Shown one piece after another: positions 25,039 to 63,676 of a DNA stretch of 64,000 nt (within the stretch, counting starts at the first letter, position 1; every line of letters starts with the position of its first letter). Location of the stretch: the IMG/VR virus record IMGVR_UViG_3300025141_000077, positions 712 through 64,711 of that record, one strand, 5' to 3'. The position numbers and the translations under genes are program-made. Source of the DNA: a virus. Its lineage: Duplodnaviria > Caudoviricetes. The notes under the pieces were generated by a model that was not told where the DNA came from, made no database searches, and worked only from the letters and a program-made list of their open reading frames with translations.

Positions 25039-25861
25039 TTTCCATCACTCCTTTAAAACATTTTTCTATAGCTACAAGGGGGTCTACATTAAATGTCCAC
25101 CCATAATCTTTTATTTTTAATACATCTGCTCTACTGACTCGTACATCTCCTAGTCTACGTGGAGCGTAATCCCATTCAGGTGAATAGTATTTTTCTACTA
25201 TTTCCTTTACATCGTTTATAGTTATATTTGCTCCAGTTCCTACATCAAAGACGTGACCACCTAAAGAATGTTTACATTTCATACAAAAAATATTAACGTC
25301 TACTATATCATCTATGTGAATATAATCTCTGACTTGTTCACCGTCTCCATCAATTCTTAATGTTTCCCCTCGTCTTATTTTTTCCATCCACGAAGATATA
25401 ACAGAAGAGTAAGCTCCATCATAACTTTGGTCTTCAGAGAATACATTAAAATATCGTAAACAAACAGTTTCTAATCCGTATAATTCCCAATATAATTTAC
25501 ATTCTAGTTCAGTCATTAACTTATGTAATCCATATGGTGAAGCAGGGCTTCCAGAATTACCATAAACTGCAGCAGAAGATGAAAAGATAAATCTTTTTAC
25601 TTTATGTTTAGAACACCATTCTAATAATTTAGAAGAAGTTAATACATTTTGTTTAAAAGTATAATAGGGATGGTCTATAGAAAACGGTACTTGAGGGAAA
25701 GCGGCAAGGTGAAAAACATAATCCACGTCCATATCCGGCAGACATTCTAAAACATCTTTGCCGTCTTTCAAATCTATACCGATTACGTCTTCCCCTAACT
25801 CTAATAGTTTATTATATATCTTGCTTCCAATATATCCTTTATGACCTGTAACTAAAATCAT
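25031..25861 (-). CDS. NAD-dependent nucleotide-sugar epimerase/dehydratase (extended SDR)
   Basis: TGHKGYIG, HLAA, SSSAAVYG, YGLHK, LRYFNV, RDYIHIDD motifs. Confidence 0.93.
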   Translation of the reverse strand: MILVTGHKGYIGSKIYNKLLELGEDVIGIDLKDGKDVLECLPDMDVDYVFHLAAFPQVPFSIDHPYYTFKQNVLTSSKLLEWCSKHKVKRFIFSSSAAVYGNSGSPASPYGLHKLMTELECKLYWELYGLETVCLRYFNVFSEDQSYDGAYSSVISSWMEKIRRGETLRIDGDGEQVRDYIHIDDIVDVNIFCMKCKHSLGGHVFDVGTGANITINDVKEIVEKYYSPEWDYAPRRLGDVRVSRADVLKIKDYGWTFNVDPLVAIEKCFKGVMENE

Positions 25862-26361
25862 TCTATATCTCCTTTAAGTTTGCACATAAAATGTAATGAA
25901 CCATCTTTATCTCCTTTATATGTTTTGAGATATAGTATCCTGTCTTTATAAAAGTTTACATCAAACGCATCTAGTAGGGTAGAATGTATATCAGGTAAGA
26001 ATTGGTATCTTGCACTGTCTCCATCTTGGTCTAATTCAGTGTCTTTTAAAGTTCCCCTTTTTCTACTAACAAGGTCTTGAATCCAAAACTGTTTACAAGA
26101 ATTAAACACGTTATTAAACCATAACTCAGGGTCTGGAGAATAATGAAATACATTCATTGCAATTATAATATCATATTTATCTTTTATTTTTTTATTCAAA
26201 TCCCAATCTTCTTTTCTTTTCACTGTCATTGTAGCTTGAGGAAACAAAGTTCTTATTAACTTTTCTTGTTCTTCATTAGGAGAGAGAAGACAAAAGGATT
26301 TTTCATCACTATACCATAAGGGAAAGTAAGTTCGATAAGATACATAGTCTTGTTTAATCAT
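25858..26361 (-). CDS. Putative class I SAM-dependent methyltransferase (degenerate motif I)
   Basis: KYDIIIAMNVFHYSPDP resembles the D-x-x-x-x-x-x-VLEH region; inside the glycan cassette. Confidence 0.55.
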   Translation of the reverse strand: MIKQDYVSYRTYFPLWYSDEKSFCLLSPNEEQEKLIRTLFPQATMTVKRKEDWDLNKKIKDKYDIIIAMNVFHYSPDPELWFNNVFNSCKQFWIQDLVSRKRGTLKDTELDQDGDSARYQFLPDIHSTLLDAFDVNFYKDRILYLKTYKGDKDGSLHFMCKLKGDIE

Positions 26362-27229
26362 TTTTTACCCTTTCTATTAAATCTTCCCATCTATTTTTCC
26401 AATGTCTAAGACTTACATTATCATCTACCCATTTGCGAGGGTTATATAAATGATAGTTATCGTATATATCTGTTAATCTTTTTTCAATCAAATCTAAATT
26501 ATCACGGGCTTCCCAAGATATAAAATGACCACACGTGTTGTCACAGTCCCCTCCAAAGAGACTAACATCAGTTGAAAGAACTGGTAGTCCACAAGCCAAT
26601 GCATCTAATTGGGAATAACTACAACCTTCACATAAAGATAGAGTGAGATAGATAGAAGCTTGGGCATAAGCTTCCATTTTAGATTCTTCTGTCATACCAC
26701 AATCTAATTGTATGTATTCAAAGTTACCTCTTTCTTGTAATAGAGGGATAACACTTTCCCCTTTATTAAATCCTCTCCAATCACCTAATACTTTACGTGA
26801 TTTGACCGGCAATTCAGAAGGATTAAGTCCAGAATAGTGAGGGATTAAGGTTCCTTCTATATCATAATGCCTTTTAAATTCCCTTTGCATAAAGATTGAA
26901 GGAGCTACAAAATAAGTGTTTTTTCTTTTTGACATTCTATTTTGACTATTAACATAATATTGACCGTTCCATAGAGGTTCCCTTTCTTGGTGGGTTTTAG
27001 AACATCCGTGATGAACTACAATACACTTAACCCCATCGGGTATTTCTGTACACATTCCATTATCTGTGATAACAATGTCATCTCTTTCTAATTGACTTAA
27101 CATCATATTCTTTTGTAATCGAATAAAGGTTTTAATATCTAATATTTTTTTTAATTCATTATCAAATCGAGGGACTCCTCCAAAGGAACCAACTTCGTAT
27201 GAGGTATCAATATAATGTATAAGTTTCAT
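26354..27229 (-). CDS. GT-B fold (GT4-like) glycosyltransferase
   Basis: GGVPR, HHG, VAPS, KG, EGCSYSQLDALACGLPVLSTDV motifs. Confidence 0.88.
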   Translation of the reverse strand: MKLIHYIDTSYEVGSFGGVPRFDNELKKILDIKTFIRLQKNMMLSQLERDDIVITDNGMCTEIPDGVKCIVVHHGCSKTHQEREPLWNGQYYVNSQNRMSKRKNTYFVAPSIFMQREFKRHYDIEGTLIPHYSGLNPSELPVKSRKVLGDWRGFNKGESVIPLLQERGNFEYIQLDCGMTEESKMEAYAQASIYLTLSLCEGCSYSQLDALACGLPVLSTDVSLFGGDCDNTCGHFISWEARDNLDLIEKRLTDIYDNYHLYNPRKWVDDNVSLRHWKNRWEDLIERVKND

Positions 27230-27846
27230 ATTACCTCTTTAATATAATTAATTATTTGAGGAAGTTTCCAATCACTTTTACTTTCTTCAATTTCCCAAGT
27301 TAGATGTAGTCCTATGTGGTCGTCCATTTTAAAGTCATTGATATTGTTATATATATAACTTGAGGTACCATAAAACTTATCTTCTGGTGTATATACTATA
27401 AGGTCTTTATAATCTATATTAGGAGGGTTTACTCCAGTAGTAATAGACCTAAATTTACATTGTATTAAAGCGTCTACAAGATTTTGACTAATACGATTAA
27501 AGGTAGGTATATACAAAGGGGATAACGTAGTATCTTTAAGGATTTCCTTTCCTTCTTTTAATATTTTTACTATTTCATCTACACTTTTATTACGAAATTC
27601 TTCTCTATCTTCGTTGTATGAACTCCACGTATAAAAATTATGATGAACTCCGTGCATACATACAATACAGTGAGTAAGACTGTTAAGAAATTCTATATCC
27701 TTTTCATTGATAAGTTTAGGGACCACCCCTAAATGATAATATATTCCTGCATCTTCAAATAATTGTAATACTTTTTTAAATAGATTAAACCTGTTAGGGA
27801 TGATAGGTTTCACTCCTGTAGGGTAGTCATCTATTCTAATAATCAT
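27226..27846 (-). CDS. Polysaccharide deacetylase (NodB/CE4-like)
   Basis: IRIDD, GVVP, MHGVHH, EF, PTFN motifs. Confidence 0.8.
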   Translation of the reverse strand: MIIRIDDYPTGVKPIIPNRFNLFKKVLQLFEDAGIYYHLGVVPKLINEKDIEFLNSLTHCIVCMHGVHHNFYTWSSYNEDREEFRNKSVDEIVKILKEGKEILKDTTLSPLYIPTFNRISQNLVDALIQCKFRSITTGVNPPNIDYKDLIVYTPEDKFYGTSSYIYNNINDFKMDDHIGLHLTWEIEESKSDWKLPQIINYIKEVI

Positions 27847-28334
27847 TTTACTTTCAAAGCTACCATACTTTGCCCTTCTTTTACACTTTCTATTTCTTCA
27901 TACCAGTCGAATGGTCCATTACGTAAGGGTTCTCTAGCCCAAAAATCGTGTATGAACACCACTGCATTTTCATTTAAGTATGGTATAATTTTTTCTGAAC
28001 AAGCTACTCTTGCTCTTCCATCTATAAAAACTAAATCATATTTCTTATTTATTCTATCTACATAATTAATATAATCTTCAAACTGTTCGTCTTTAGTAGG
28101 TATAGTAGGGTTATATATCCCATTAGTAGGAACATAAGTTAATGTAACATTGTCCCCTTTATCTTTTTTTACTTTATTATACCAATTGAAATCGTGTTCT
28201 ATACTATATAATTCTTTAACTAATTTACCAAAATGAGAGGTACTACCACCACTTCCCCATTCTAACATAATAGTATTCGGAGTAATATATTTTTCAATTA
28301 GCTCCCTTTCTGTCGTTCCCATATACAATTTCAT
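27843..28334 (-). CDS. Class I SAM-dependent methyltransferase, probably glycan-acting
   Basis: LEWGSGGST, SIEHD, VFIDGRAR, IHD motifs. Confidence 0.85.
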   Translation of the reverse strand: MKLYMGTTERELIEKYITPNTIMLEWGSGGSTSHFGKLVKELYSIEHDFNWYNKVKKDKGDNVTLTYVPTNGIYNPTIPTKDEQFEDYINYVDRINKKYDLVFIDGRARVACSEKIIPYLNENAVVFIHDFWAREPLRNGPFDWYEEIESVKEGQSMVALKVK

Positions 28335-28403
28335 TTATAATCCACTAAAATTTTATTCCCCGATACGGGATATCTGCGAGAATTTGTAGTTAATACACCC
28401 ATT

Positions 28404-28553
28404 CTAGGAACGTTTGCGAGGAGGTGTGAAGGGATTACTTGCTTGATTTAGTATTTCACCATCAGCTTTTGTAACTACTTCTGCTTCAATTTCTAATTCT
28501 TTTGCCTCTTCAACTATTTTTTCCAACTTTTCTTTCTTATCTTTCTTAGTCAT
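28404..28553 (-). CDS. Small hypothetical protein
   Basis: Probable start MTKKDKK just after the upstream stop. Confidence 0.5.
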   Translation of the reverse strand: MTKKDKKEKLEKIVEEAKELEIEAEVVTKADGEILNQASNPFTPPRKRS

Positions 28554-28554
28554 A

Positions 28555-28842
28555 CTAAGCACTTCCAGATAATGTCTCATAGGTTTCACCTATAAGTGCT
28601 GATTGGTGCATCTCTGACTCTGACCAAGGAACTATTGTCCCTGATAGAGAGTTGTATGCTAATGTTACTACTTCTTGGTCTGTTTTACCTGAAGCAGATG
28701 AGCTTGCTACTATAGTATCCCAATATTGCGCTCTACAGTTTGGTGTACACGTTGCTGTAAAACCAACACATACTCCAGTAGGAGCATCACTAGGGTACCA
28801 TTCATATCTTGTAACCTTTACGGTTGTATAACAGTCTGCCAT
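28555..28842 (-). CDS. Small beta-rich protein, possibly virion/fibre-associated
   Basis: 95 aa, good SD, three Ser-Gly motifs like the structural proteins. Confidence 0.55.
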   Translation of the reverse strand: MADCYTTVKVTRYEWYPSDAPTGVCVGFTATCTPNCRAQYWDTIVASSSASGKTDQEVVTLAYNSLSGTIVPWSESEMHQSALIGETYETLSGSA

Positions 28843-28844
28843 AT

Positions 28845-28997
28845 TTATTTCCTCTTTCTTTTTGTTGTTTTGCGTTTCTTCTTCCCAGCAGTATTATACG
28901 CAATTGCTGCTGCTTGTTTCGGTTTATAACCTTCTTTCCTCAATTTGCGGATGTTTCCACTAATTGTCTTCTTGCTCTTGCCCTTCTTCAGAGGCAT
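28845..28997 (-). CDS. Small very basic phage protein (50 aa; not in ORF track), putative DNA-binding
   Basis: MPLKKGKSKKTISGNIRKLRKEGYKPKQAAAIAYNTAGKKKRKTTKRKRK; resembles a widespread MPLKKG..NI..QAxAIA phage family. Confidence 0.7.
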   Translation of the reverse strand: MPLKKGKSKKTISGNIRKLRKEGYKPKQAAAIAYNTAGKKKRKTTKRKRK

Positions 28998-29271
28998 TGG
29001 CATCCTCCTGTAAACCTACAATGTATTCTTGCCACGCTTCTTCAAGTTCTTGTTCTGATATAAAATCATTAACTACTTGAGCATTTTGCTGTATCACACC
29101 TTCTACCTGACGATGGGATTGTTCTACATTCCCTAATCTATCTCCGAGTGTTTTTAATTGAGTAATGAGGAAATTCATATTAGTAAATACTAATTTGTCA
29201 TCATTACCAGCCTCAAATTGGGCTATCCAGCTTTCTAGTTCTTCAACTTTTCTTTCCAGTTTCTTTGTCAT
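28960..29271 (-). CDS. Coiled-coil hypothetical protein
   Basis: GAGGT SD; helical, Gln/Glu-rich. Confidence 0.65.
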   Translation of the reverse strand: MTKKLERKVEELESWIAQFEAGNDDKLVFTNMNFLITQLKTLGDRLGNVEQSHRQVEGVIQQNAQVVNDFISEQELEEAWQEYIVGLQEDANASEEGQEQEDN

Positions 29272-29279
29272 CTATAACC

Positions 29280-30350
29280 TCAGCACACACAATATTTATG
29301 TTTGCATATTTTTAGTTCTATTAACTTATCACCTGAATATCTATTTATACCTTTCGTCCGAAGGTTAGTAATATGATACCCAGCTGAGCCGTCATCGTTA
29401 TACCATCCCCAGTCACCAGCAGGTTCGTCGTTAAAGATAGCTTTAAAAACAAACGATATGTCACGGTCTTTCCAATTAGCATTTATTAACTCCACTGCAA
29501 CAGCAGTATTTTCGGAATGACCTAAGTGACCTTTCTCTATACCCTCATTTATTAATGCAAGTATACAGTCACGGGGTGGAATAATGTAATCTAATTTGAT
29601 ATCCCCTCTGGGATTATCATATTCTTTTCCATTTATTAAATCAATTAAATGGTCTATCGAATTAGTTGGTGTATATGTAATACCTAGTTTATCGCATACA
29701 TAATAGATAAAATCTTTTGCTGCTTGTAAATTACTGGTACGAGAATTAATTATCTGGGTATTATCTCTATATGATAGTGTTATAATATCATCCAGTTCTA
29801 ATTCTAACATTTCATCTACAGTTATTTGAACACACTTTTTACCATTAAGTTCCCCTGTTTTTTTATTAATGTAGGGGGTATCGGGCATTCTACGTAAACA
29901 AGAGACACTATTATTGATACATTGTGTATCTAAAGTTGTTAAGGTATATTTTTTCCTTAAAAATAATAAGTAATCTTTTATCATAACTCGTTTAATACTG
30001 TCTGAAATATTAATAATAAGTGGGAAATCGATGTTTAATTGGAATCCTCTACCTCCTGTATAATATATACGAGGTATTAGATTATTAGGTTTACAATATC
30101 TATTATATAATTTACGTACATCTTTTAAACATTTGTTTACATCTTTATCGTGGTCAAAGTCAAACCATATAGTATTAATGACAGCACTATCGTAGATAGT
30201 CTTGCCGTTTTCTACCCCAGTAAAAGTATACACACTAACATAACAGTTGTTATTACCCGAGTGTTTATCAGATAATTTTAATATATCTTCTACGTTATAG
30301 CACTTAGCTATTCTTTGCGGGATACCGAACTCTCTGAATCCTTTAGACAC
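29280..30350 (-). CDS. Archaeo-eukaryotic primase: PriS catalytic domain fused to a PriL-CTD-like domain
   Basis: YVSVY, WFDFD, TGGRGFQ, RRMP; C-terminal PPRDCI...LGH...YHI...RY...ICKHKYC. Confidence 0.85.
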   Translation of the reverse strand: MSKGFREFGIPQRIAKCYNVEDILKLSDKHSGNNNCYVSVYTFTGVENGKTIYDSAVINTIWFDFDHDKDVNKCLKDVRKLYNRYCKPNNLIPRIYYTGGRGFQLNIDFPLIINISDSIKRVMIKDYLLFLRKKYTLTTLDTQCINNSVSCLRRMPDTPYINKKTGELNGKKCVQITVDEMLELELDDIITLSYRDNTQIINSRTSNLQAAKDFIYYVCDKLGITYTPTNSIDHLIDLINGKEYDNPRGDIKLDYIIPPRDCILALINEGIEKGHLGHSENTAVAVELINANWKDRDISFVFKAIFNDEPAGDWGWYNDDGSAGYHITNLRTKGINRYSGDKLIELKICKHKYCVC

Positions 30351-30562
30351 AACTCCTCCATTTCAACTACCCAAGAAGTAGGGATGCATATAAAATCTAC
30401 CCCATCTATATCAGAGTAATGATAGTTGATTATGATAGCTCTTTCACATTGAGCTACGACTTCCCCAATAGTTTCACAATATGATAAGTGATTACTAGGG
30501 TCTTTAATATCTATTTTACTCTGTTGAGTAGCGTTAGTTGCATCAAACCATTTAATTTTCAT
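30308..30562 (-). CDS. Small beta-barrel phage protein (possibly Sm-like)
   Basis: IKWFDA...ETIG...CIPTSWV pattern of a common viral family. Confidence 0.5.
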   Translation of the reverse strand: MKIKWFDATNATQQSKIDIKDPSNHLSYCETIGEVVAQCERAIIINYHYSDIDGVDFICIPTSWVVEMEELCLKDSESSVSRKE

Positions 30563-30572
30563 TAATGGTCCC

Positions 30573-30935
30573 CTACTCCCTAACACTTTCTTTCCACTCC
30601 TTGAACAATCCTGCCACTACAAATATATCATTATCTTCTGACCCGAAGTATTGACAATTTGATGGCGTTTCATTTACAAATATACCCTGACGTGGCCTAT
30701 CGAACAATAACCTATCATAAGGTATTTGTTGAATCTTTAACCAATTTTCAGTCTTTAGTTTTGTTTCCATTTCGTTTGAACGCTTGGTCCATATAGTTAT
30801 ATGATGACCTTGCTTCTTTAACCATTGCATAAATTCGGTTACATTGGCAATGGGTTTACATAAACCATAATCTGCATTAGGGGAACATATAACGTGCTCC
30901 ATTTCAAAAATTAGATTCATTGCATCATCCTCCAC
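30573..30935 (-). CDS. HAD-fold capsule-biosynthesis phosphatase-like protein with degenerate catalytic motifs
   Basis: FEMEHVIC in place of DxDGT; GHHITIWTKR; IPYDRLLFDRP; FVNE in place of IDD. Confidence 0.65.
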   Translation of the reverse strand: MEDDAMNLIFEMEHVICSPNADYGLCKPIANVTEFMQWLKKQGHHITIWTKRSNEMETKLKTENWLKIQQIPYDRLLFDRPRQGIFVNETPSNCQYFGSEDNDIFVVAGLFKEWKESVRE

Positions 30936-31023
30936 CTTAAATATTCTATCATTATAAAGGTCCAGAGTATAATAAAAATCATTATATCTAAATGATTTGT
31001 GCTTTCATACTCACTTAACCAAC

Positions 31024-32406
31024 TCATATACTTTTCCCTACAGTTTTTATCCACCTTTTCCACATTGGTCCTACTGCTTTCATCCAATCATAGTGTTTAA
31101 TAGTGTATTTACGAGCGTTTTTACCGTGCTCTTTTAGTACATCACGATTATGGTAATAATATTCAAAAGCTTCTGCTCCCTTTTGTTCGTCCCATAATGC
31201 CCTCATAGGGGCTGCTCGGATAGGAGTGTCCCACATCATATCTTTGTAAGGTATAAGGAATCCTCTATCAGACTCAATCATATTATCATCCCCATCTAAA
31301 CCGTGAGGGAATAACATTTCTGGAGGACATTGAGGTGAATCAGCTCCTACTAATTCATAACTAGTAGTGTAATTACATATTACATTAGGTTTACCACAAG
31401 ACATAGCTTCTACAGTAGGGATACCAAATCCTTCCCCACCCGTAGGTAATGCGTGGACATCCATCATATTATAAATATCTACCATCCCATCATCATCAGG
31501 GTGTTCTCCATTTTCTAAGTTCCCCATTGTAGGAGGTACCATATATTCTGCAATGTCAAACACTTTGTCACTAGACATATATTGTATATTCCATCCCATA
31601 TGGTCTTCCCAATGCATATGCAATAAGAGTTTAGCATCATCAGGGGTAAGGTTATTCTTTTCTACAAATAATTTAAAGGACCGCATTAATCGAGGAATAT
31701 GTTTGCGGTGTTGGTTTCGTGCCACACACCCAATCACAAAGGCATCATTAGGTCGAGGAATATCTCTTGGTTTAAAGAAATTTGTATCTACACCGTGAGG
31801 AATATAAGTAGATTTGTAACCATTAAAATCTTCTAACATTACAGATTGTCCATATCTGGACATTGCTACAGGATAATCTACGTGTTCTAAAGTACGTAAC
31901 CAGTTAGGAATAGAAGGTTGCCCATCAATAGGGATAATTGAACCTAATTTAAATCTAGGTTTCTGACCCACTTTGTAAGCCTTTCTTGCTAATCTAATAA
32001 AAGACTGTTGATTTTGCCACGTACCTTGTTCATCTACCATAGGTATGTTTAATCCTGATGGTTGTTTATGTTGTGTAACATAATCAAACATTTGGATATC
32101 TAAATGAGTAAAAACTAAATCTGGTTTAAACCCTTCCATCCATTGAGGGAAAGACTTTTCCCCAAACTTTTCTTCACCCGGATGCATTAAGGGAAGTATT
32201 TCAAAAGATACTTTCTTTTCTTCTTGTCCTAAAGGCCAAGGGGTTTCCCAAGAGGGAATATGTTGAGGGTTCTGACACCCTGCAAAACCTAAGGTATGAC
32301 CTTCTTCTGCAAATATACTAGCTATATTTCTTGTATTCGTCCCGAATCCTGTAGGAGCCCAAGGCGAATCACTGATTGGCATTATCCTGACCATTTTATC
32401 ACTCAC
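31024..32406 (-). CDS. GT-B (GT4) glycosyltransferase
   Basis: SDSPWAPTGFG, IPHGVD, RNQHRK, GEGFGIPTVEAMSCGKP motifs. Confidence 0.92.
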   Translation of the reverse strand: MSDKMVRIMPISDSPWAPTGFGTNTRNIASIFAEEGHTLGFAGCQNPQHIPSWETPWPLGQEEKKVSFEILPLMHPGEEKFGEKSFPQWMEGFKPDLVFTHLDIQMFDYVTQHKQPSGLNIPMVDEQGTWQNQQSFIRLARKAYKVGQKPRFKLGSIIPIDGQPSIPNWLRTLEHVDYPVAMSRYGQSVMLEDFNGYKSTYIPHGVDTNFFKPRDIPRPNDAFVIGCVARNQHRKHIPRLMRSFKLFVEKNNLTPDDAKLLLHMHWEDHMGWNIQYMSSDKVFDIAEYMVPPTMGNLENGEHPDDDGMVDIYNMMDVHALPTGGEGFGIPTVEAMSCGKPNVICNYTTSYELVGADSPQCPPEMLFPHGLDGDDNMIESDRGFLIPYKDMMWDTPIRAAPMRALWDEQKGAEAFEYYYHNRDVLKEHGKNARKYTIKHYDWMKAVGPMWKRWIKTVGKSI

Positions 32407-44399: not shown

Positions 44400-45134
44400 T
44401 TAAATCTTTGGATGCACGTTAGCACCTGCTTTTGTCCACCGTATTATCTCCCCGTCTTTCCATACACAATAGGCTGCTCGTAAACACTCGTTATCGTGAG
44501 CGTATTGGTCAAACCATTCAAAGAACTCATTATTATCGACTAAATAAGTCTCCATTAACCATACATATTGTGCTCTTATTTTAAAGTTAGGATTTCCTAT
44601 CAATCTATCGTAGTCTATTAAATGCTCCTGAGCCCATAGGTCAAACATCAGCAAACTTTCAGGTATATTTATTCTAATATTCTGTTCTTGTGAAGCATAC
44701 ATTAAAATATGATTAATGCTTCCTATAACAAACGCATATTTACCATCATTTAATCTAATAGGGTAATGCTCATCATTCTTGCCCTGCATTGCTCCCCGTT
44801 TATATAATAAAACTTCTCCCTCCATCTCAGCGAGACCATTAATTAATCTTTGTATAACAGGTTGAGGCACGTGTGCTCTTCTTCCACCACCTGAGCGCCA
44901 TACATAATTACGACCATTCTTTCTATATAATGCTCCATATCCTTTGGTTCTCATTGTGTTTCTCGCTATCATAAATCGGAGCGACTCATCACTTTCAATT
45001 TGTCCTGTTCTTTTCATTAAAGTGTAGCAGGTTGTTTCCTTTTGCCATTCAGCAAGAATGTAATTGAATGTGATATCCGGTTCTTGTGCTGCAAAATCTT
45101 CTAAATTATTTACGTTTATTCTGTATAGTTGCAT
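44400..45134 (-). CDS. Hypothetical protein (244 aa)
   Basis: GGAG SD; no family recognised. Confidence 0.7.
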   Translation of the reverse strand: MQLYRINVNNLEDFAAQEPDITFNYILAEWQKETTCYTLMKRTGQIESDESLRFMIARNTMRTKGYGALYRKNGRNYVWRSGGGRRAHVPQPVIQRLINGLAEMEGEVLLYKRGAMQGKNDEHYPIRLNDGKYAFVIGSINHILMYASQEQNIRINIPESLLMFDLWAQEHLIDYDRLIGNPNFKIRAQYVWLMETYLVDNNEFFEWFDQYAHDNECLRAAYCVWKDGEIIRWTKAGANVHPKI

Positions 45135-45291
45135 CGTGCTCTCCTTTCTTTGGTAATTTTTTGTAGGTGCTGTGTCCTGTTCCTCTCGGATTCTTCTTCT
45201 TCAGTAATCTTTTACGCCAATATGATGACGGATAATATGCTTTGATAAGGTCTTTATCTATCTCTGAAACCTTCTTACGTTTGCGCTTCAC
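45106..45291 (-). CDS. Small basic protein
   Basis: Lys/Arg-rich; GTGA overlap with the upstream stop. Confidence 0.55.
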   Translation of the reverse strand: MKRKRKKVSEIDKDLIKAYYPSSYWRKRLLKKKNPRGTGHSTYKKLPKKGEHDATIQNKRK

Positions 45292-45677
45292 TTTCTTCTT
45301 AACCTCTTAAGCATATTCACGTCTTTCTTATTCATTCCACCAGCATACTTTCCTTTCATATCTCTGCTTCGTTTCATTGAACTTGGATTCCACATATTTG
45401 TGTCACGCTTCATTCTTTCTTTATTCGCTTTAGTGTGTTGGACATATTTCCACTCACCGTCTGAACCCCTAAATCGAGCGGTTCTGTATTCTTCTGTTAA
45501 AACTTCGCTTGGGTCCCACTGATTCTTACACAGCGAACAATAGTAATGGGCGTGGTGATTATTATCTTCAGCATTATACTTCAATTTGTTTGAAGATGCT
45601 TCTTTACACTCGGGGCAAGTCACCTTAACCTGCCCTCGCTTCCCCTTAGGCACTAAAGCCTCCCATTTCATCGTCAT
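45288..45677 (-). CDS. Zinc-ribbon protein with basic tail
   Basis: CPEC...YYCSLCKNQW. Confidence 0.7.
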   Translation of the reverse strand: MTMKWEALVPKGKRGQVKVTCPECKEASSNKLKYNAEDNNHHAHYYCSLCKNQWDPSEVLTEEYRTARFRGSDGEWKYVQHTKANKERMKRDTNMWNPSSMKRSRDMKGKYAGGMNKKDVNMLKRLRRK

Positions 45678-46971
45678 CTAAACTGCTGTAGTCATTTTCT
45701 AAGACATTCCAGCTTTTTAGGTAGTCCTTTATGTCAGCTATAGCAATTACAGCATCATAATTATTTTGTGATACCGGCACATAGTCTTCTAACATATCGC
45801 ACTCAACATAGTAAGTGACAAAGCCATTAGGGATAACAATAGACTTGCCTGAACTGCTGACTCTTACTTGTTCATCTTCAGCTATCCTTTCAAGGCCGGA
45901 ATATTGTCCCTCTTCTGCTTCAATACGGTCTAGCATATCATAAAACTTCATCAACTTTCCTTCTGAAGCGTCATCATCATCCAATGCTGCTGACCAACCA
46001 CTTGAGTTATTACCGTAGTATTTGATACCGCCGTAGTATTCGTATGCTCCTGCACCTTGATACGACCAATTGTATACTGCTCGAGTTGGTTTAAATTCTA
46101 CTTGCTCTGGATGTTTAGTAAAATGCCCGTGTAATTTAGGTAAGAGATGCTGTATAAATCCGAGTGACCTCATTAGGTGCTCCCATATTACATATTCGCT
46201 ACCTGAATGTGCATTGTAATAACCAGCAAATAGATTTATGCCGTTTATATTTAGTTCTGAAACTATTTCACTAACATCAGATATAGAGCCGTTGCACGAT
46301 TTGAGGCCAAAATCTTTACCCCATTCATTAAGCATTGTTTCCATTACATCTGAGCACAACTTGTAATCACTGTTTTGTGTAATTATATCAGTATTGCCGT
46401 TTCTATCAATAGTTATATTGAATACGACATTCTTGAATTTACCGCTGTGATGTTCCATTGCGTGTCTTGCTCCATTACATCCTGTTTCTTCTGATACGGT
46501 CAGAAGTCCGCTTAGTGGTATGTCTATTGCTTTATTGTTTATTGTTTTCAATACTGCAAAGACACCGCACTTGTCATCGCCGCCAATTACCTGATTGTTT
46601 GTTGAGCGCAATACAGTTCCTTTCTTCTTCTGATGCTCGACTATTATGTCTGGAGCAGCAGACCCGACTGTATCCATATGCGCATTCAGCAATATTCTGT
46701 TATCACCTTTAACGTGATTTGCGAAATAGATATTTCCGGCAGTGTCTATCTCATATTCTATCTCAGCGTCACGTAGATATTGTGTCACGTATGCAATCAT
46801 AGCGTGTTCATCTCCGCTTGGACTAAAGATAGAGAACATAGAGCCGATTAAGTCTATATCACTCATTGCTGTCATATTTTCAGGTATCTTGGTAATGATG
46901 CTTTTACTTGCCTTTTCTTCAATAGTCTTTTCAGCTATTGCTTTTGTTGGTTCTTGCTCTTCACTACTCAT
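45646..46971 (-). CDS. M20/M28-family zinc peptidase/amidohydrolase
   Basis: SPSGDE, AHMDTV, GGDDKCG, SEETG, IDR, GSISD, GYYNAH metal-ligand motifs. Confidence 0.9.
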   Translation of the reverse strand: MSSEEQEPTKAIAEKTIEEKASKSIITKIPENMTAMSDIDLIGSMFSIFSPSGDEHAMIAYVTQYLRDAEIEYEIDTAGNIYFANHVKGDNRILLNAHMDTVGSAAPDIIVEHQKKKGTVLRSTNNQVIGGDDKCGVFAVLKTINNKAIDIPLSGLLTVSEETGCNGARHAMEHHSGKFKNVVFNITIDRNGNTDIITQNSDYKLCSDVMETMLNEWGKDFGLKSCNGSISDVSEIVSELNINGINLFAGYYNAHSGSEYVIWEHLMRSLGFIQHLLPKLHGHFTKHPEQVEFKPTRAVYNWSYQGAGAYEYYGGIKYYGNNSSGWSAALDDDDASEGKLMKFYDMLDRIEAEEGQYSGLERIAEDEQVRVSSSGKSIVIPNGFVTYYVECDMLEDYVPVSQNNYDAVIAIADIKDYLKSWNVLENDYSSLDDDEMGGFSA

Positions 46972-48682
46972 TTTCGTTTACCTCTATGGTATAATATTCA
47001 GTGCCGCCTATAAATTCTTGGGCAGCATAACGTAGATTTGGACTTGCTTCTACATCTCTTCTGATGTTGCTGTATCTAATTCTTTGGTCCTCGTCTTTGT
47101 AATATGTAAATTCTGCTTCACTACTATCAGGTTTGCTTTCCCAAAATGGCGACCAAGTCAGCGTTTCAAGATTTACTCTTGTGCCTTCCCTTTTAACTTG
47201 TAATTTGGTGCTATCTCTTAAGAAATTATAAATGCTTGAATCGTGCCTTGAATTTCTATATGCAATTAATTCATATCCCTCAGCAAATGACTCTTTTGCC
47301 CATTCATTTAATGCTTGGAAGAGTCCAACATACACTTCTTTTTTAGCGTTTGTGTGCTGGGATAAATATATTCTTGAAGGAGCAATAAACATAGGATGCT
47401 CATCATCCCATTGCTCTTTAAATAGTCTAACAACTGCACGGCCAATCATATTGCCGTCATCATCTCTAAGGATAGTCAGCAAATGTGGATTAACCACCAT
47501 ATCAAATGCTCCAAACGCATATGCTTGGTTGTTTCCCCTTGTTTGACAACTTCTTAATGCTTCACCATTGTTATAGTTCTCCATCAGCGTATCTAAATCA
47601 AAGCCTATTTGAACACCTACTTTTGTATTAACTACATTAGTTTGGTATTGCTGGAAATGAGTATCCCAATTGCTTTGTTTATAATCTGCATATTGTGGGA
47701 ATCTTACCTTGTAAGCACGAGAGAATATCTGATTGATTGCTCTCTTTAAGTCTGCGCCGTCGTCTGTCTTGTTTTCTTTAAGCATAGATGTTATTCCATC
47801 TACGCCGACATACTCAAGCGAATAATTATAATAATTTTGGCCGAGTTCTTGCATACTAATTTCATCACCCTTAACCACGCCGCCTTCTTTTCTGTTATAA
47901 TATTTAATATGCTTTCTAAATAAATGCCTCAATGGGTGATAAAGCCCATAAGCCTTATGCTCTTGTAAAAATGTGTCAAGTTGCATCATTTCATAGAACA
48001 TTTGCGCTGTTCTTTTGTAAACAGGGCTGCTTAATGTTATTTGTCCTTTCCACCAAGCACCACCATCATCTGATGCTGCTGTTTGTGGTCCTAAGCAATC
48101 TTTATTAATTAAATAAGGGTTATATTCATACTCATCTAAAGCATAACCATAAAATTCTTTTATCGCACTCATCTCTGAAGCACCTGCACGTCTGTAAGCG
48201 TCTTTCAAATGCATACTGCTTACACTTATAGTGCGTGATGCTTCTTGTGCTATATCTCTATGACCGCTTCGATTATAACAATCTTCACATCGCAGTTCAT
48301 AATAATGGTCAGTGCCGATTTCATAAAAATAAATGTCCGCTCCACACTGTTCACAACAACAGCAAGTAGAATCATTGCAGTTATGACATACTATCTCACC
48401 GCTGTATTCACTGTCATTATAATAATCGCCGTTTCGCATATCAATAATTTCGCCGCAACTATCACAGTCGCTGTAATCTCCACCGTGTCGGCAGTCGTGA
48501 CATACGTCACCGCCCGGCACAGGATGCTTATCATCAGATGCTGTAAATTCATCACTACAATCGTAGCATTCCCATAAACTATTACGGCAAGAAGTGCATA
48601 CGCATTCATAGTTTGCCGTGGATTCTATATTGTCAGAATTTTCTTCTGCTCCACATATCTCACACTCTGCTGTATTACACAT
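46964..48682 (-). CDS. Multi-CxxC N-terminal zinc-finger array fused to a putative PcfJ/GNAT-like domain
   Basis: Eight CxxC pairs in the first ~140 aa; later RSCQ...IGRAVVR...RIY pattern. Fold call is tentative. Confidence 0.6.
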   Translation of the reverse strand: MCNTAECEICGAEENSDNIESTANYECVCTSCRNSLWECYDCSDEFTASDDKHPVPGGDVCHDCRHGGDYSDCDSCGEIIDMRNGDYYNDSEYSGEIVCHNCNDSTCCCCEQCGADIYFYEIGTDHYYELRCEDCYNRSGHRDIAQEASRTISVSSMHLKDAYRRAGASEMSAIKEFYGYALDEYEYNPYLINKDCLGPQTAASDDGGAWWKGQITLSSPVYKRTAQMFYEMMQLDTFLQEHKAYGLYHPLRHLFRKHIKYYNRKEGGVVKGDEISMQELGQNYYNYSLEYVGVDGITSMLKENKTDDGADLKRAINQIFSRAYKVRFPQYADYKQSNWDTHFQQYQTNVVNTKVGVQIGFDLDTLMENYNNGEALRSCQTRGNNQAYAFGAFDMVVNPHLLTILRDDDGNMIGRAVVRLFKEQWDDEHPMFIAPSRIYLSQHTNAKKEVYVGLFQALNEWAKESFAEGYELIAYRNSRHDSSIYNFLRDSTKLQVKREGTRVNLETLTWSPFWESKPDSSEAEFTYYKDEDQRIRYSNIRRDVEASPNLRYAAQEFIGGTEYYTIEVNENE

Positions 48683-48703
48683 TTAATTTGCTCCTGAAAC
48701 GAA

Positions 48704-48781
48704 TGGACCTGCCGACCGGATTTGAACCGGTGTCCGAGCAACAAGATTGCCCGATGATGGGCCGGACTACACTACGGCAGG
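48704..48781 (-). tRNA. tRNA-like gene, 78 nt with encoded CCA; anticodon position reads CTT (nominally Lys), atypical
   Basis: Acceptor CCTGCCG/CGGCAGG-T-CCA; D-arm GTGTAGTCCGGCCCATCAT; anticodon arm GGGCA-ATCTTGT-TGCTC; 4 nt variable loop; T-arm ACCGG-TTCAAAT-CCGGT. Confidence 0.85.
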
Positions 48782-48855
48782 AACTATTTCGCTTCATTTT
48801 ATTATTCTCGTTGCTTTTTCTCAGATTGCTCACTGTGAACTGCTCTATCACCTTC

Positions 48856-48873
48856 CTTATATATAAAGACTTC
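48856..48873 (-). promoter_or_regulatory. BRE-TATA promoter for the tRNA-like gene and downstream operon
   Basis: - strand GAAGTCTTTATATATAAG. Confidence 0.7.
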
Positions 48874-49107
48874 TCAGCGTCTGTTTTTTCTCTCTTAACT
48901 TTGCCGGGAACGAAACCAGAATCGGAGGAGCAGGGAAAACAATAACCTGCTTTAATTCTAACTTCGTTCCTATCGGCGTTCATCTTTTATTATTCTTCGC
49001 TCCAATAATAACATTCAAACCAAGCATCATACCAATCTATCATCTGTGCTCTCTATAATGTAATTGAAATGCTACGAACATATACCAAGCTTCATTGCTT
49101 CCTATCA

Positions 49108-49251
49108 TTAAAAATGTCCTGTGCTCATTACGTTATCCATTGCTTTCTGATGCACAGCATAACAGTCCTTACACATATCGGCAGCTTGCCAAAATTCTAA
49201 TGCTGGTTTACCACACAGCAGTTTACATTTCTTTTGCTCTTTTTTGTTCAT
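49108..49251 (-). CDS. Zinc-finger microprotein (47 aa; not in ORF track)
   Basis: CKLLCGKPA...CKDCY; TAATG-coupled at both ends. Confidence 0.6.
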   Translation of the reverse strand: MNKKEQKKCKLLCGKPALEFWQAADMCKDCYAVHQKAMDNVMSTGHF

Positions 49252-49400
49252 TAAAGCAACTCCATTACTTCGCCCCATTGCTCGTCATCAATAGTGCCGT
49301 TTTGATATAACGGCGCAGTCCATAAACTGCCGTCAATCATTGCATATATGTTGCCGGGGAATAGGTTTATGCTGAATGTTTCTTCTTTGCTTGGTATCAT
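49251..49400 (-). CDS. Microprotein (49 aa; not in ORF track)
   Basis: MIPSKEETFS...WGEVMELL; coupled at both ends. Confidence 0.55.
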   Translation of the reverse strand: MIPSKEETFSINLFPGNIYAMIDGSLWTAPLYQNGTIDDEQWGEVMELL

Positions 49401-62590: not shown

Positions 62591-63676
62591 ATGGTTACAG
62601 CACAAGAAGGTTTATTAACATCCAATAACACTGGGTCATACCAAGCAACAGGCGGTACGGGAGAGAGAGTCCTTATTGATTATAAAGACGCACTCGTGGA
62701 TTACAGGACAACTGATATCCCCGTAGTAAGTTTGTTCACAGAACGTATGGTCACAGATACTGGTGGAGACATAGATATTACATTTGGTCTTCCATCAATG
62801 GTTATGGAACAGATAGATGAAGGAAGCACCCCTAAATACCAACACACAAAGATGCGCTCCGAGAGAGTTAGCGTTAAAGAGTGGGGTATTGCAGTAGGTG
62901 TTACCCGTAGAATGATTGAGGATTCCCGATTCAACGAAGTTGAGTTGGCCCTTAATGAAGCACGCAGAGCAGTTGACAGACATATTGAGAAACACATTGT
63001 TTACGCATTGTTAGGTCTTGATGATTCAACATTAGGTACTGGACTTGGAGGTTCAGCTATCGGTGTTGGTTCAGCAGAAGGACCTGCATCAGACTCGATT
63101 ACTGATTTTTCCGCCAATATATATGGTGGTTTCATTGGTAGTGGTGGTACAGTAGGCAGTGGACGATTGTACAGCTATGGTTTAACATCAGATGCACAAT
63201 TAGAGAAAAGTCACTATGTCGCAGCTACGTCCGGTGCAGCAGGAGCAATTAGACTTGCCGATGTTACTAACGCAATCCAATTGATTGGTAATATGGGATA
63301 CAATGCAGATACGATATTTATATCACCTGCACACTACAAGTCTCTATTGGACCTTGCTGACTTTACTATTGCAGCATCGCTAGGGAGTGCAACTCCACGT
63401 AATAGCGGTGGTAATCTTGGTGGATTCCAAGACACATCTGTGAATGGTTTGGTTGGACAAATCTATGGGTTAAATGTTTACACTAGTGCTTGGATACCTT
63501 CCTCAAGGTTTGGTATCTTTGATTCCAGTGTTAAACAGCTAGCTTATGTCGAGAGACGCCCACTAACTGTTGAAGAAGCAAATCCCGGTTTTGGTATTGT
63601 TGGTTCCTATATGTCTATGAGATATGGACTAAAGGTTATCCACCCTGAAACTGGAGTAGTTGTCATCAACACTTAG
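62591..63676 (+). CDS. Major capsid protein (HK97 fold)
   Basis: IDEG, EWGIAVGVTRRMIEDS, ISP, GQIYGLNVY, RYGLKVIHPE motifs; GGTGA SD. Confidence 0.92.
   Translation: MVTAQEGLLTSNNTGSYQATGGTGERVLIDYKDALVDYRTTDIPVVSLFTERMVTDTGGDIDITFGLPSMVMEQIDEGSTPKYQHTKMRSERVSVKEWGIAVGVTRRMIEDSRFNEVELALNEARRAVDRHIEKHIVYALLGLDDSTLGTGLGGSAIGVGSAEGPASDSITDFSANIYGGFIGSGGTVGSGRLYSYGLTSDAQLEKSHYVAATSGAAGAIRLADVTNAIQLIGNMGYNADTIFISPAHYKSLLDLADFTIAASLGSATPRNSGGNLGGFQDTSVNGLVGQIYGLNVYTSAWIPSSRFGIFDSSVKQLAYVERRPLTVEEANPGFGIVGSYMSMRYGLKVIHPETGVVVINT

What the first reader, a model, noticed from the sequence alone, without database searches (positions are those of the whole stretch)
48704..48781. tRNA with a Glu/Asp/Gln-type body but a CUU anticodon and non-canonical identity positions
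The cloverleaf is intact with encoded CCA. But the loop is A32-U33-CUU-G37-U38: purine at 32, a possible A32-U38 pair shrinking the loop to 5 nt, and G37 where NNU anticodons normally have t6A37. It has C1:G72 and U73, with a D-arm and 4 nt variable loop like archaeal Glu/Asp/Gln tRNAs. Intact stems argue against decay. Options: anticodon-nuclease-resistant tRNA-Lys, decoy, mis-acylated recoding tRNA, or non-ribosomal aminoacyl donor.
Basis: partly seen in the sequence, partly recalled or inferred. Interest (0 to 1): 0.7.

Follow-up and report, generated by a model that had tools for sequence, protein, structure and literature searches.

The report
Viral Glu-type tRNA reading lysine codon
A marine archaeal virus carries a well-conserved transfer RNA that is built like a glutamate tRNA but has the anticodon for the lysine codon AAG, so which amino acid it delivers, and why the virus keeps it, must be settled by experiment.

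Summary
Window 48704-48781 (minus strand) is the only tRNA in a 64.7-kb tailed-virus record. It has an intact cloverleaf, encoded CCA, loop A32-U33-CUU-G37-U38, C1:G72 and U73.

It is not a decayed gene. Twelve further loci in viral and marine metagenome contigs carry the same tRNA, giving 8 distinct sequences. Ten of 22 drawn pairs show compensatory changes, while U33-CUU-G37 never varies.

The body is archaeal tRNA-Glu. The D-arm motif hit only tRNA-Glu/Asp in cellular genomes (28 of 28, all archaeal MAGs, mostly Marine Group II/III). Identity to a host-type tRNA-Glu(CUC) is 72-77%, against 50-59% to host tRNA-Lys. Host tRNA-Glu also has G37, so G37 is inherited. One related virus carries a sister gene that still has CUC, so this is an anticodon shift (C36 to U) within a viral tRNA lineage.

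AAG is not recoded. In orthologues of a tRNA-less relative, AAG aligns with Lys 76% of the time and Glu 4%, the same as AAA.

Most likely it is charged with lysine by the host class I LysRS and reads AAG. Continued glutamylation, or a role in evading a tRNA-targeting defence, is not excluded.

Verdict: a new variant of a known kind, of moderate to high interest.

The parts
48704..48781 (-). tRNA gene, 78 nt with encoded CCA. Glu-type body with anticodon CUU.
   Evidence: ARAGORN; Rfam RF00005 at 40.7 bits; covariation among 8 distinct homologues.
48741..48747 (-). Anticodon loop A32 U33 C34 U35 U36 G37 U38. The anticodon itself lies at 48743-48745.
   Evidence: Read. U33-CUU-G37 is invariant in all 8 distinct CUU sequences. 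Positions 32:38 are A-U in 5, G-U in 2 and U-G in 1, so always pairable.
48858..48870 (-). Invariant GTCTTTATATATA element, about 78 nt upstream of the tRNA 5' end. It is a candidate archaeal TATA-type promoter for the tRNA plus the downstream gene.
   Evidence: Identical in the window, in two tRNA-less relatives and in two tRNA-bearing relatives (alignment A4). Promoter function is inferred and was not tested.
48683..48703 (-). 21-nt spacer between the tRNA 3' end and the start codon of the next gene. It contains AGGAG at 48691-48695.
   Evidence: Read. It is present only in tRNA-bearing genomes, as part of the inserted block.
46964..48682 (-). Downstream 572-aa Cys-rich protein of unknown function. 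The tRNA sits in its 5' leader.
   Evidence: ORF list. No Pfam, PHROG or NCBIfam match. Homologues at 60% identity in relatives that lack the tRNA.
45646..46971 (-). 441-aa M20/M28/M42-type metallopeptidase-like protein. It belongs to the three-gene module beside which the tRNA lies in 7 of the 9 sequence types (context not recoverable for L042; L095 reached via its contig's locus L102).
   Evidence: phrog_4191, 9.2e-40; PF05343 and PF04389; neighbourhood comparison.

Best explanation
This is a functional, virus-encoded tRNA. It belongs to a lineage that descends from an archaeal tRNA-Glu(CUC) of the Marine Group II/III type and whose anticodon has shifted by one base (C36 to U) to CUU.

In this virus the gene sits in the 5' leader of a 572-aa gene, downstream of a conserved TATA-like element. 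It is probably transcribed with that gene and cut out by the host's tRNA-processing enzymes (inferred).

I think the host's class I lysyl-tRNA synthetase most likely charges it with lysine. In the one enzyme of that class studied, recognition rests on U35/U36 and hardly on the discriminator base. The tRNA would then read AAG as lysine in viral mRNAs.

On this reading the Glu-type D arm, the 4-nt variable loop and G37 (probably methylated to m1G37) are ancestry, not new function. The changed positions flanking the anticodon (purine 32, U38) match neither host tRNA-Glu nor host tRNA-Lys. They may tune decoding without t6A37, or make the tRNA invisible to enzymes that act on host tRNA-Lys. Which of these explains why the gene is kept is open.
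For: Shown:
- It is a real tRNA.
- It belongs to a conserved family. There are 12 other loci with CUU (L004, L095 and 10 of 10 metagenome hits), giving 8 distinct sequences including the window's. The acceptor, anticodon and T stems are 100% paired, 10 of 22 pairs have compensatory changes, and U33-CUU-G37 is invariant. The metagenome pattern allowed UUU and A37, and found neither.
- The body is Glu-type. Of 28 cellular loci with the D-arm motif, 26 are tRNA-Glu, 2 are tRNA-Asp and 0 have CUU. Identity is 72-77% to host-type Glu(CUC) and 50-59% to host-type Lys. My own sequence profiles give 41-48.5 bits on the Glu profile and 2.7-4.7 bits on the Lys profile.
- Host-type Glu, Gln and Asp tRNAs all have G37.
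- A sister gene with CUC lies in the same genomic neighbourhood in a related virus. It is 79% identical to the nearest CUU member and 70-71% to host Glu.
- AAG means Lys in this virus. Of 300 aligned AAG codons, 228 face K and 13 face E in the tRNA-less relative. For AAA the figures are 482 K and 26 E of 697.
- The three host-type genomes searched each encode a class I LysRS (PF01921, 338-346 bits).

From the literature (passages read, PMC9976931 section 46): for LysRS-1, studied only in Borrelia burgdorferi, U35 and U36 are determinants, U36 is the stronger, and N73 is marginal. That fits a family in which position 73 varies among U, G and A. The same review (PMC9976931, Lysine identity section) reports that transplanting a UUU anticodon confers lysine identity with human LysRS.
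Against: - No aminoacylation or expression data exist. No RNA run could be listed for this stretch.
- The archaeal non-discriminating GluRS lacks the loop that reads base 36 (PMC2978374, passages read). A Glu body with a CUN anticodon might therefore still be glutamylated.
- G37 never reverted to A37 in 8 lineages, although A37/t6A is what every host U36 tRNA uses. This is unexpected for a tRNA selected only to read AAG as Lys.
- The host type has its own canonical tRNA-Lys(CUU).
- Codon compensation is weak. AAG is only 7th of 61 codons by virus-minus-host excess in this virus and 18th in another carrier.
- Carriers do not use AAG more than the tRNA-less relative: AAG is 0.30 and 0.26 of Lys codons, against 0.345.
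- In B. burgdorferi, LysRS-1 also needs G2:U71. Neither the viral tRNAs (C2:G71) nor the host tRNA-Lys (G2:C71) have it, so that system may not transfer.
- The host assignment rests only on tRNA likeness and GC content.
Confidence: 0.5

Rival explanations
1. The tRNA keeps glutamate identity, either wholly or shared with lysine. The archaeal non-discriminating GluRS reads the Glu-type body plus C34 and U35 and ignores base 36. The virus would then produce Glu-tRNA(CUU), which inserts Glu at AAG codons. That would be deliberate or tolerated mistranslation, for example to damage host protein synthesis.
For: - The whole Glu-type body and G37 are retained in all 8 CUU sequences.
- A sister gene with CUC has nearly the same body.
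- The archaeal ND-GluRS lacks the G36-recognition loop (PMC2978374).
- In E. coli the D-arm features and the missing residue 47 are major Glu determinants (PMC9976931 section 16).
Against: - The virus has 398 AAG codons, 20.9 per 1000, and they are conserved as Lys exactly like AAA: 76% against 69% K, with 4% E for both.
- AAG is neither avoided nor placed at tolerant sites, so Lys-to-Glu errors would hit the virus itself.
- My D-arm conservation is partly by ascertainment, because the search patterns required it.
Confidence: 0.12
2. The tRNA is lysine-charged, but it is kept as a counter-defence. It would replace host tRNA-Lys(CUU) when a host (or viral) tRNA-targeting nuclease or modifying enzyme removes that tRNA. 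The foreign body and the altered loop positions 32, 37 and 38 would make it insensitive.
For: - The loop differs from every host-class tRNA-Lys(CUU) seen (10 distinct sequences from 23 genes, all C-U-CUU-A-A) at exactly the non-anticodon positions 32, 37 and 38.
- The CUC sister also differs from host Glu(CUC) at positions 32, 33 and 38.
- This is the pattern described for phage tRNAs that escape anticodon nucleases (PMC10264068, abstract and passages).
- Codon compensation explains the gene poorly.
- The gene is patchy and mobile within the family, like an accessory gene.
Against: - No tRNA-targeting system is known or was sought in these hosts.
- No RNA-repair or nuclease-inhibitor gene was recognised among the 40 window proteins scanned against Pfam.
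- A CUU tRNA cannot rescue AAA, which is 70% of the virus's Lys codons.
- G37 is simply ancestral.
Confidence: 0.2
3. The tRNA has a role outside translation. It could be a processing signal in the 5' leader of the 572-aa gene (RNase P/Z cuts shaping the mRNA), a decoy for a tRNA-binding protein, or an aminoacyl donor for a non-ribosomal reaction.
For: - In this virus it lies between a conserved promoter-like element and the start codon.
- Positions 26:44, 32:38 and 33:37 can all pair, so the anticodon arm can be drawn as an 8-bp helix with a CUU triloop.
Against: - The gene sits at different places in different family members: upstream of the 572-aa gene, or downstream of the module. It is therefore not tied to one mRNA.
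- Relatives have the same gene module without the tRNA.
- An invariant anticodon, full tRNA tertiary-interaction nucleotides and encoded CCA point to decoding.
- No tRNA-dependent transferase was recognised.
Confidence: 0.1
4. It is a neutral passenger or a decaying copy of a captured tRNA-Glu whose anticodon mutated by chance.
For: - It is absent from close relatives.
- The Rfam score is lowish, at 40.7 bits.
Against: - There are 8 distinct sequences with all three long stems 100% paired.
- 10 of 22 pairs show compensatory change.
- The loop core is invariant.
- Host tRNA-Glu also scores only about 54 bits.
Confidence: 0.04

Closest known systems
Alloacceptor anticodon shifts, or tRNA remolding (eukaryotic nuclear genomes, PMC3923123; metazoan mitochondria, PMC4783518; abstracts seen in the search listing)
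   Same: The tRNA is closer in sequence to another acceptor family (Glu) than to tRNAs with its own anticodon (Lys). One anticodon substitution separates it from the parent type, and a sister gene with the parental anticodon exists.
   Different: Here the shift sits in a virus-borne gene lineage of archaeal viruses. The host keeps both parent and target tRNAs. The change of amino-acid identity is inferred, not shown.
Yeast mitochondrial tRNA-Thr derived from tRNA-His (PMC3113583; abstract seen)
   Same: A tRNA of one family was recruited to read codons of another.
   Different: That case reassigns CUN codons and has an 8-nt loop. Here the loop has 7 nt and the codon keeps its meaning.
Virus-encoded tRNAs that resemble host tRNAs, for example tRNA-Leu and tRNA-Arg of group B magroviruses of Marine Group II archaea (PMC5434244; passage read)
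   Same: It is a tailed marine archaeal virus with a tRNA whose body matches Marine Group II/III tRNAs.
   Different: Those tRNAs are reported as matching the host tRNA of the same isotype. This one matches the wrong isotype. I did not test whether this virus is a magrovirus; its nearest TerL in the phage collection is Halogranum tailed virus 1 at 26% identity.
Phage tRNAs with anticodon-loop mutations proposed to escape host anticodon nucleases (PMC10264068; abstract and passages)
   Same: The anticodon is kept while loop positions beside it differ from the host's cognate tRNA.
   Different: Here the whole body comes from another isotype. No nuclease is known in the host, and no resistance has been tested.
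Host-type archaeal tRNA-Glu(CUC) (loci L013-L039, and locus L084 of genome G005)
   Same: It shares the D arm, the 11-nt D loop, the 4-nt variable loop, G37, the T loop, encoded CCA and base pairs C2:G71 and U3:A70.
   Different: U36 replaces C36. Position 32 is a purine and 38 is U, where the host has U32 and A38. The T stem and anticodon stem differ. Position 1:72 is flipped and position 73 is U in this copy.

Membership tests
tRNA (Rfam RF00005) | Cloverleaf with a 7-bp acceptor stem, D arm, 5-bp anticodon stem with a 7-nt loop, T arm with a GGUUCAAAUCC-type loop, and a score above the gathering threshold. | tested here: met
   40.7 bits against 29, over model positions 1-71; ARAGORN; covariation in three stems.
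Host-type archaeal tRNA-Lys | Anticodon YUU. | tested here: met
   CUU.
Host-type archaeal tRNA-Lys | Loop C32 ... A37 A38 and a Lys-type body (GGGCC acceptor stem, GCUYAGCUAGG D arm, mostly G73). | tested here: not met
   All 15 distinct host-class tRNA-Lys sequences have the loop C-U-NUU-A-A. The viral loop is A-U-CUU-G-U. Identity is 50-59%, and the Lys profile gives 2.7-4.7 bits.
Host-type archaeal tRNA-Lys | Accepts lysine. | not testable with these tools
   Needs aminoacylation assays.
Archaeal tRNA-Glu | Glu-type D arm, 4-nt variable loop, G37. | tested here: met
   The D-arm motif is found only in tRNA-Glu/Asp of archaea (28 of 28). Identity is 72-77%, and the Glu profile gives 41-48.5 bits. 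Host Gln and Asp score alike on that profile, so it marks the Glu/Gln/Asp type of body and not Glu alone.
Archaeal tRNA-Glu | Anticodon YUC. | tested here: not met
   CUU in the window and in all 12 other loci. CUC appears only in the sister gene of L105.
Anticodon-shifted (remolded) tRNA | [quoted passage not shown] | tested here: met
   The L105 CUC gene lies in the same gene neighbourhood. The direction of the change is inferred.
Recoding or suppressor tRNA | The codon it reads has a changed meaning in the genome that carries it. | tested here: not met
   AAG aligns to K in 228 of 300 cases and to E in 13 of 300. AAA aligns to K in 482 of 697 and to E in 26 of 697.
Nuclease-evading viral tRNA | Loop differs from the host cognate tRNA at non-anticodon positions. 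| tested here: met
   Positions 32, 37 and 38.
Nuclease-evading viral tRNA | The host has a nuclease aimed at that tRNA, and the viral tRNA resists it. | not tested
   No search for such systems was made. Resistance needs experiments.

The most novel reading that the evidence does not exclude
The tRNA is still glutamylated, because the archaeal non-discriminating GluRS does not read anticodon base 36. An abundant family of marine archaeal viruses would then make Glu-tRNA(CUU) and force Lys-to-Glu mistranslation at AAG codons during infection. That would be a virus-encoded mistranslating tRNA, or at least a dual-identity Lys/Glu tRNA.
Probability: 0.1. Interest if true: 0.9.

Novelty: new variant of a known kind. 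Interest (0 to 1): 0.6.

Why it matters
Viral tRNAs are usually read off by their anticodon and explained by codon supply. Here the anticodon and the rest of the molecule disagree, and selection clearly maintains that disagreement across a widespread family of uncultured marine archaeal viruses.

If lysine is attached, this is a natural experiment. It would show that an archaeal class I LysRS needs little beyond the anticodon, and it would be the first case I could find of an isotype switch inside a viral tRNA lineage. My three literature searches found no report, but many journals are not in the library searched.

If glutamate is attached, it would be virus-driven mistranslation.

If the odd loop protects against a tRNA-cutting defence, it would point to tRNA-targeted immunity in planktonic archaea, where none is known.

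There is also a practical lesson: annotating viral tRNAs by anticodon alone can mislead host prediction and codon analyses.

Tried and rejected
**Searches that gave nothing or failed**
- The Rfam gathering scan of the whole window found nothing. The tRNA appears only when a shorter stretch or the record search is used.
- The exact 27-nt D-arm string had 0 hits in viral contigs.
- The strict acceptor-stem pattern had 0 hits in genome contigs.
- The tRNA region had no meaningful match in the phage collection: one 27-nt chance hit.
- The metagenome loci could not be reached as whole records, so I could not look at the 143.6-kb contig that holds an identical copy.
- No RNA run was listed for window 47800-49400, so no reads were laid.
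- The ESM Atlas gave only unnamed viral clusters for the 572-aa neighbour.

**False leads**
- A loose pattern gave 7 extra viral loci (L006-L012). All are one coding sequence and not tRNAs: chance matches.

**Explanations considered and set aside**
- Codon compensation as a sufficient reason. AAG excess over host-type loci is modest: 1.44-fold, rank 7 of 61 codons here and rank 18 in G003. The tRNA-less relative uses AAG at least as much. The host sample is small (about 34,000 codons from crude ORFs near tRNA-Glu genes of 20 loci), and the true host is unknown.
- An attachment-site fragment for integration. The gene is complete, its acceptor stem matches no cellular tRNA found, and it varies among viruses.
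- A tRNA on the plus strand. The complement would have C at position 33 (read from the sequence).
- C34 modified to read AAA. Nothing supports this.
- A virus-encoded synthetase, tRNA-modifying enzyme or RNA ligase. None was recognised among the 40 window proteins scanned against Pfam (10 of them also against PHROGs, 8 also against NCBIfam). About 28 of my 68 crude ORF calls, mostly tail and other structural genes or ORFs under 100 aa, were not scanned.

**Not done**
- I did not fold the 572-aa protein.

**Unavailable**
- Supplementary files of the papers were closed. The tRNA tables of the magrovirus and Poseidoniales-virus papers may list this gene.

Full report
**1. What is there**

The window is nearly all of a 64,711-base virus record, estimated 92% complete. 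It is a tailed virus. It encodes a terminase large subunit, a portal, an HK97-type capsid protein and a family B DNA polymerase. Other genes recognised are a class II ribonucleotide reductase-like gene, a DNA methylase, a Cas4-like nuclease and a block of sugar-modifying enzymes. GC content is about 36%. Its terminase is only 26% identical to the nearest entry of the phage collection, a haloarchaeal tailed virus.

The record has a single tRNA, at 48704-48781 on the minus strand.
- Rfam scores it at 40.7 bits, above the 29-bit threshold.
- The default scan of the whole window missed it.

**2. It is a conserved gene family, not a wreck**

Three routes found homologues.
- A pattern built on the acceptor stem found one in another complete virus, G003, locus L004.
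- A pattern built on the D arm and loop allowed UUU as well as CUU, and A37 as well as G37. It found ten loci in marine metagenome contigs. ARAGORN calls all ten Lys-CTT, and all have C34 and G37.
- A D-arm pattern with no constraint on the anticodon found one more viral contig, L095.

Together with the window this makes 13 loci and 8 distinct sequences. On the cloverleaf:
- The acceptor, anticodon and T stems are paired in every sequence.
- 10 of 22 pairs show changes on both sides.
- No shuffle out of 500 reaches the covariation score.
- Sliding the 3' partners by 1-3 columns drops pairing from 95.5% to 28-52%.

U33-C34-U35-U36-G37 never varies. By contrast, 1:72 is C:G in five sequences and G:C in three, and the discriminator is U, G or A. 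So C1:G72 and U73 belong to this copy and not to the family.

Positions 32:38 are always pairable (A-U in 5, G-U in 2, U-G in 1). Positions 26:44 covary as Watson-Crick pairs (C:G in 6, U:A in 2). RNAalifold even draws an 8-bp anticodon helix with a CUU triloop.

A caveat on ascertainment: most of my patterns required the Glu-type D arm. Its invariance is therefore partly built in.

**3. Where the body comes from**

The D-arm motif was searched in one genome per prokaryotic species. It hit 28 loci, all in archaeal MAGs. These are mostly Marine Group III, Poseidoniales (Marine Group II) and other Thermoplasmata, with some DPANN-type archaea.

Read by eye, 22 are tRNA-Glu(CUC), 4 are tRNA-Glu(UUC) and 2 are tRNA-Asp. 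None has CUU. Nineteen share one identical tRNA-Glu(CUC), and two of those are cut by contig ends.

I then took all tRNAs of one such genome, G005. Rfam gave 37 matches, of which ARAGORN called 36. The results were:
- The viral sequences are 72-77% identical to its tRNA-Glu(CUC).
- They are 63-73% identical to its Gln and Asp tRNAs.
- They are 50-59% identical to its two tRNA-Lys.

I built sequence profiles from 15 distinct host-class tRNA-Lys and 6 tRNA-Glu. The viral tRNAs score 2.7-4.7 bits on the Lys profile and 41-48.5 bits on the Glu profile. Host Gln and Asp also score well on the Glu profile, so it marks the Glu/Gln/Asp type of body and not Glu alone.

In G005:
- Every tRNA with U36 has A37 (11 of 11).
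- Every tRNA has a pyrimidine at position 32 (36 of 36).
- 33 of 36 have A38.
- Glu, Gln and Asp tRNAs all have G37.
- All 36 end in an encoded CCA.

G37 and the CCA end are therefore ordinary for the parent type. Purine 32 and U38 are not ordinary for any host tRNA.

The host class has its own canonical tRNA-Lys(CUU). From 30 loci I recovered 23 genes with 10 distinct sequences, and all have the loop C-U-CUU-A-A.

**4. A sister gene with the parental anticodon**

I searched viral contigs with an alignment of the neighbouring peptidase. This returned 11 loci of the virus family. Three have a tRNA within the held flanks:
- G003 (CUU).
- The L095 contig (CUU).
- L105, which carries a tRNA-Glu(CUC) about 2.6 kb downstream of the peptidase gene (Rfam 50.9 bits).

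The L105 gene shares several features with the CUU family: the RGAC variable loop, an A:U first T-stem pair and a purine at position 32. It is 79% identical to its nearest CUU member, against 70-71% to host tRNA-Glu. Its own loop is odd too (A32, C33, C38).

The simplest reading has two steps. A tRNA-Glu(CUC) was captured by this virus family, and C36 then changed to U in a line that has since diversified. The direction of the change is inferred. The identity margins are small on 78 nt.

A last scan with no constraint on the anticodon found only these three viral contigs.

**5. Context and mobility**

In the window the tRNA lies 21 nt upstream of the start codon of a 572-aa Cys-rich protein with no recognisable family.

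Two relatives with 60% identical copies of that protein have no tRNA anywhere in their records. One of them is a complete 71.9-kb genome, G002.

Alignment of the intergenic regions shows:
- An invariant GTCTTTATATATA element in all five sequences.
- The tRNA, with short flanks and a new AGGAG, as an insertion between that element and the start codon.

I infer that the tRNA is transcribed from this TATA-like element together with the downstream gene and then excised.

In other family members the tRNA sits elsewhere. In L044, L047, L095 and L105 it is downstream of the three-gene module (572-aa protein, M20/M28/M42-like peptidase, small zinc-ribbon protein). In L042 it is in a further position.

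Presence is patchy across the family's divergence. It is an accessory gene that moves.

**6. What AAG means in this virus**

The window virus, G003 (a carrier) and G002 (no tRNA) share 50-51 reciprocal best-hit proteins at 57-70% identity.

| Comparison | Codon | Aligned codons | Facing K | Facing E |
|---|---|---|---|---|
| Window virus vs G002 | AAG | 300 | 228 (76%) | 13 (4%) |
| Window virus vs G002 | AAA | 697 | 482 (69%) | 26 (4%) |
| G003 vs G002 | AAG | 275 | 160 (58%) | not among the six commonest |
| G003 vs G002 | AAA | 780 | 450 (58%) | 35 (4%) |

AAG is therefore lysine, and a reassignment is excluded.

AAG is common: 398 codons, 20.9 per 1000. It is the most used G-ending codon among the 12 A/G synonymous pairs I counted. 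A tRNA inserting Glu there would damage the virus's own proteins.

**7. Which enzyme charges it**

This part is inference.
- The three host-type genomes I searched each have a class I LysRS.
- A review reports that, for the only class I LysRS studied, U35 and U36 are determinants, U36 is the stronger, and the discriminator is marginal (PMC9976931, passages read). That fits a family with an invariant CUU and a free position 73.
- On the other side, the structure paper on an archaeal non-discriminating GluRS says the loop that reads base 36 in GlnRS is missing (PMC2978374, passages read). So glutamylation of a Glu body with CUU cannot be dismissed.

Selection has kept G37, although a single transition would give the A37 that all host U36 tRNAs use. 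I cannot explain this under the simple lysine reading. It could reflect a synthetase requirement, avoidance of an enzyme that recognises the t6A37 loop of tRNA-Lys, or the need for m1G37 to keep a self-pairing loop open.

**8. Why keep it**

Codon supply is a weak reason.
- Against about 34,000 codons from host-type loci (GC mostly 36-40%, like the virus), AAG is 1.44-fold enriched in the virus.
- It ranks only 7th of 61 codons by excess here, and 18th in G003.
- The tRNA-less G002 uses AAG at least as much.

The flanking-position pattern resembles what has been proposed for phage tRNAs that escape anticodon nucleases (PMC10264068). No such system is known in these hosts, and I did not look for one. 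I therefore leave the selective reason open between supply and counter-defence.

**9. Verdict**

- The gene is real and under selection.
- It is a Glu-derived, anticodon-shifted viral tRNA.
- Recoding is excluded.
- Lysine charging is the best but unproven reading.

Anticodon shifts and viral tRNAs are both known. Their combination in an archaeal virus lineage, with a conserved non-canonical loop, is a new variant. I found no report of it in three literature searches.

Noticed in passing
L105:11859-11936 (+): A related virus carries a tRNA-Glu(CUC) of the same viral lineage with an odd loop of its own: A32, C33 in place of the near-universal U33, G37 and C38.
   Followed up: partly
window 48871-48990 (minus strand): A block of about 120 nt upstream of the TATA-like element is conserved at the DNA level among relatives. 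It has single-base indels that break the small ORF starting at 48983, so it may be a regulatory or RNA element and not a protein.
   Followed up: no
window 23282-32406 (minus strand): A run of sugar-modifying genes: GT2 and GT1/4 glycosyltransferases, an NAD-dependent epimerase/dehydratase, two methyltransferase-like proteins and a DUF2334 protein. This suggests the virus glycosylates something, perhaps its virion or DNA.
   Followed up: no
window 44400-48682 (minus strand): A conserved module is found in all relatives, with or without the tRNA. It comprises a 572-aa Cys-rich protein with no family, an M20/M28/M42-like metallopeptidase (weak sub-threshold likeness to LysW-lysine hydrolase and acetyl-lysine deacetylase models), and a 129-aa zinc-ribbon protein.
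   Followed up: partly
L043 (metagenome contig of 143,640 bases): This contig holds a stretch 100% identical at the protein level to the window around the tRNA, yet it is more than twice as long as the 64.7-kb virus record. It could be a concatemer, a larger genome or an integrated copy. The record could not be reached.
   Followed up: no
L047:2390-2467 (+): This family member combines C1:G72 with A73. From memory, that is the acceptor-end signature of archaeal tRNA-Tyr. I did not check this here, and the host tRNA-Tyr was not in the set fetched.
   Followed up: no
window 1-64000: The default Rfam gathering scan of the full window reported no tRNA, although the gene scores 11.7 bits above threshold when a shorter stretch is searched. 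Glu-type viral tRNAs may be under-counted by such scans.
   Followed up: yes
window 62591-63676 (+): The capsid protein has at least 931 relatives at E <= 1e-10 in public metagenome proteins, many from marine surveys, none named. The virus family is abundant and uncharacterised.
   Followed up: no
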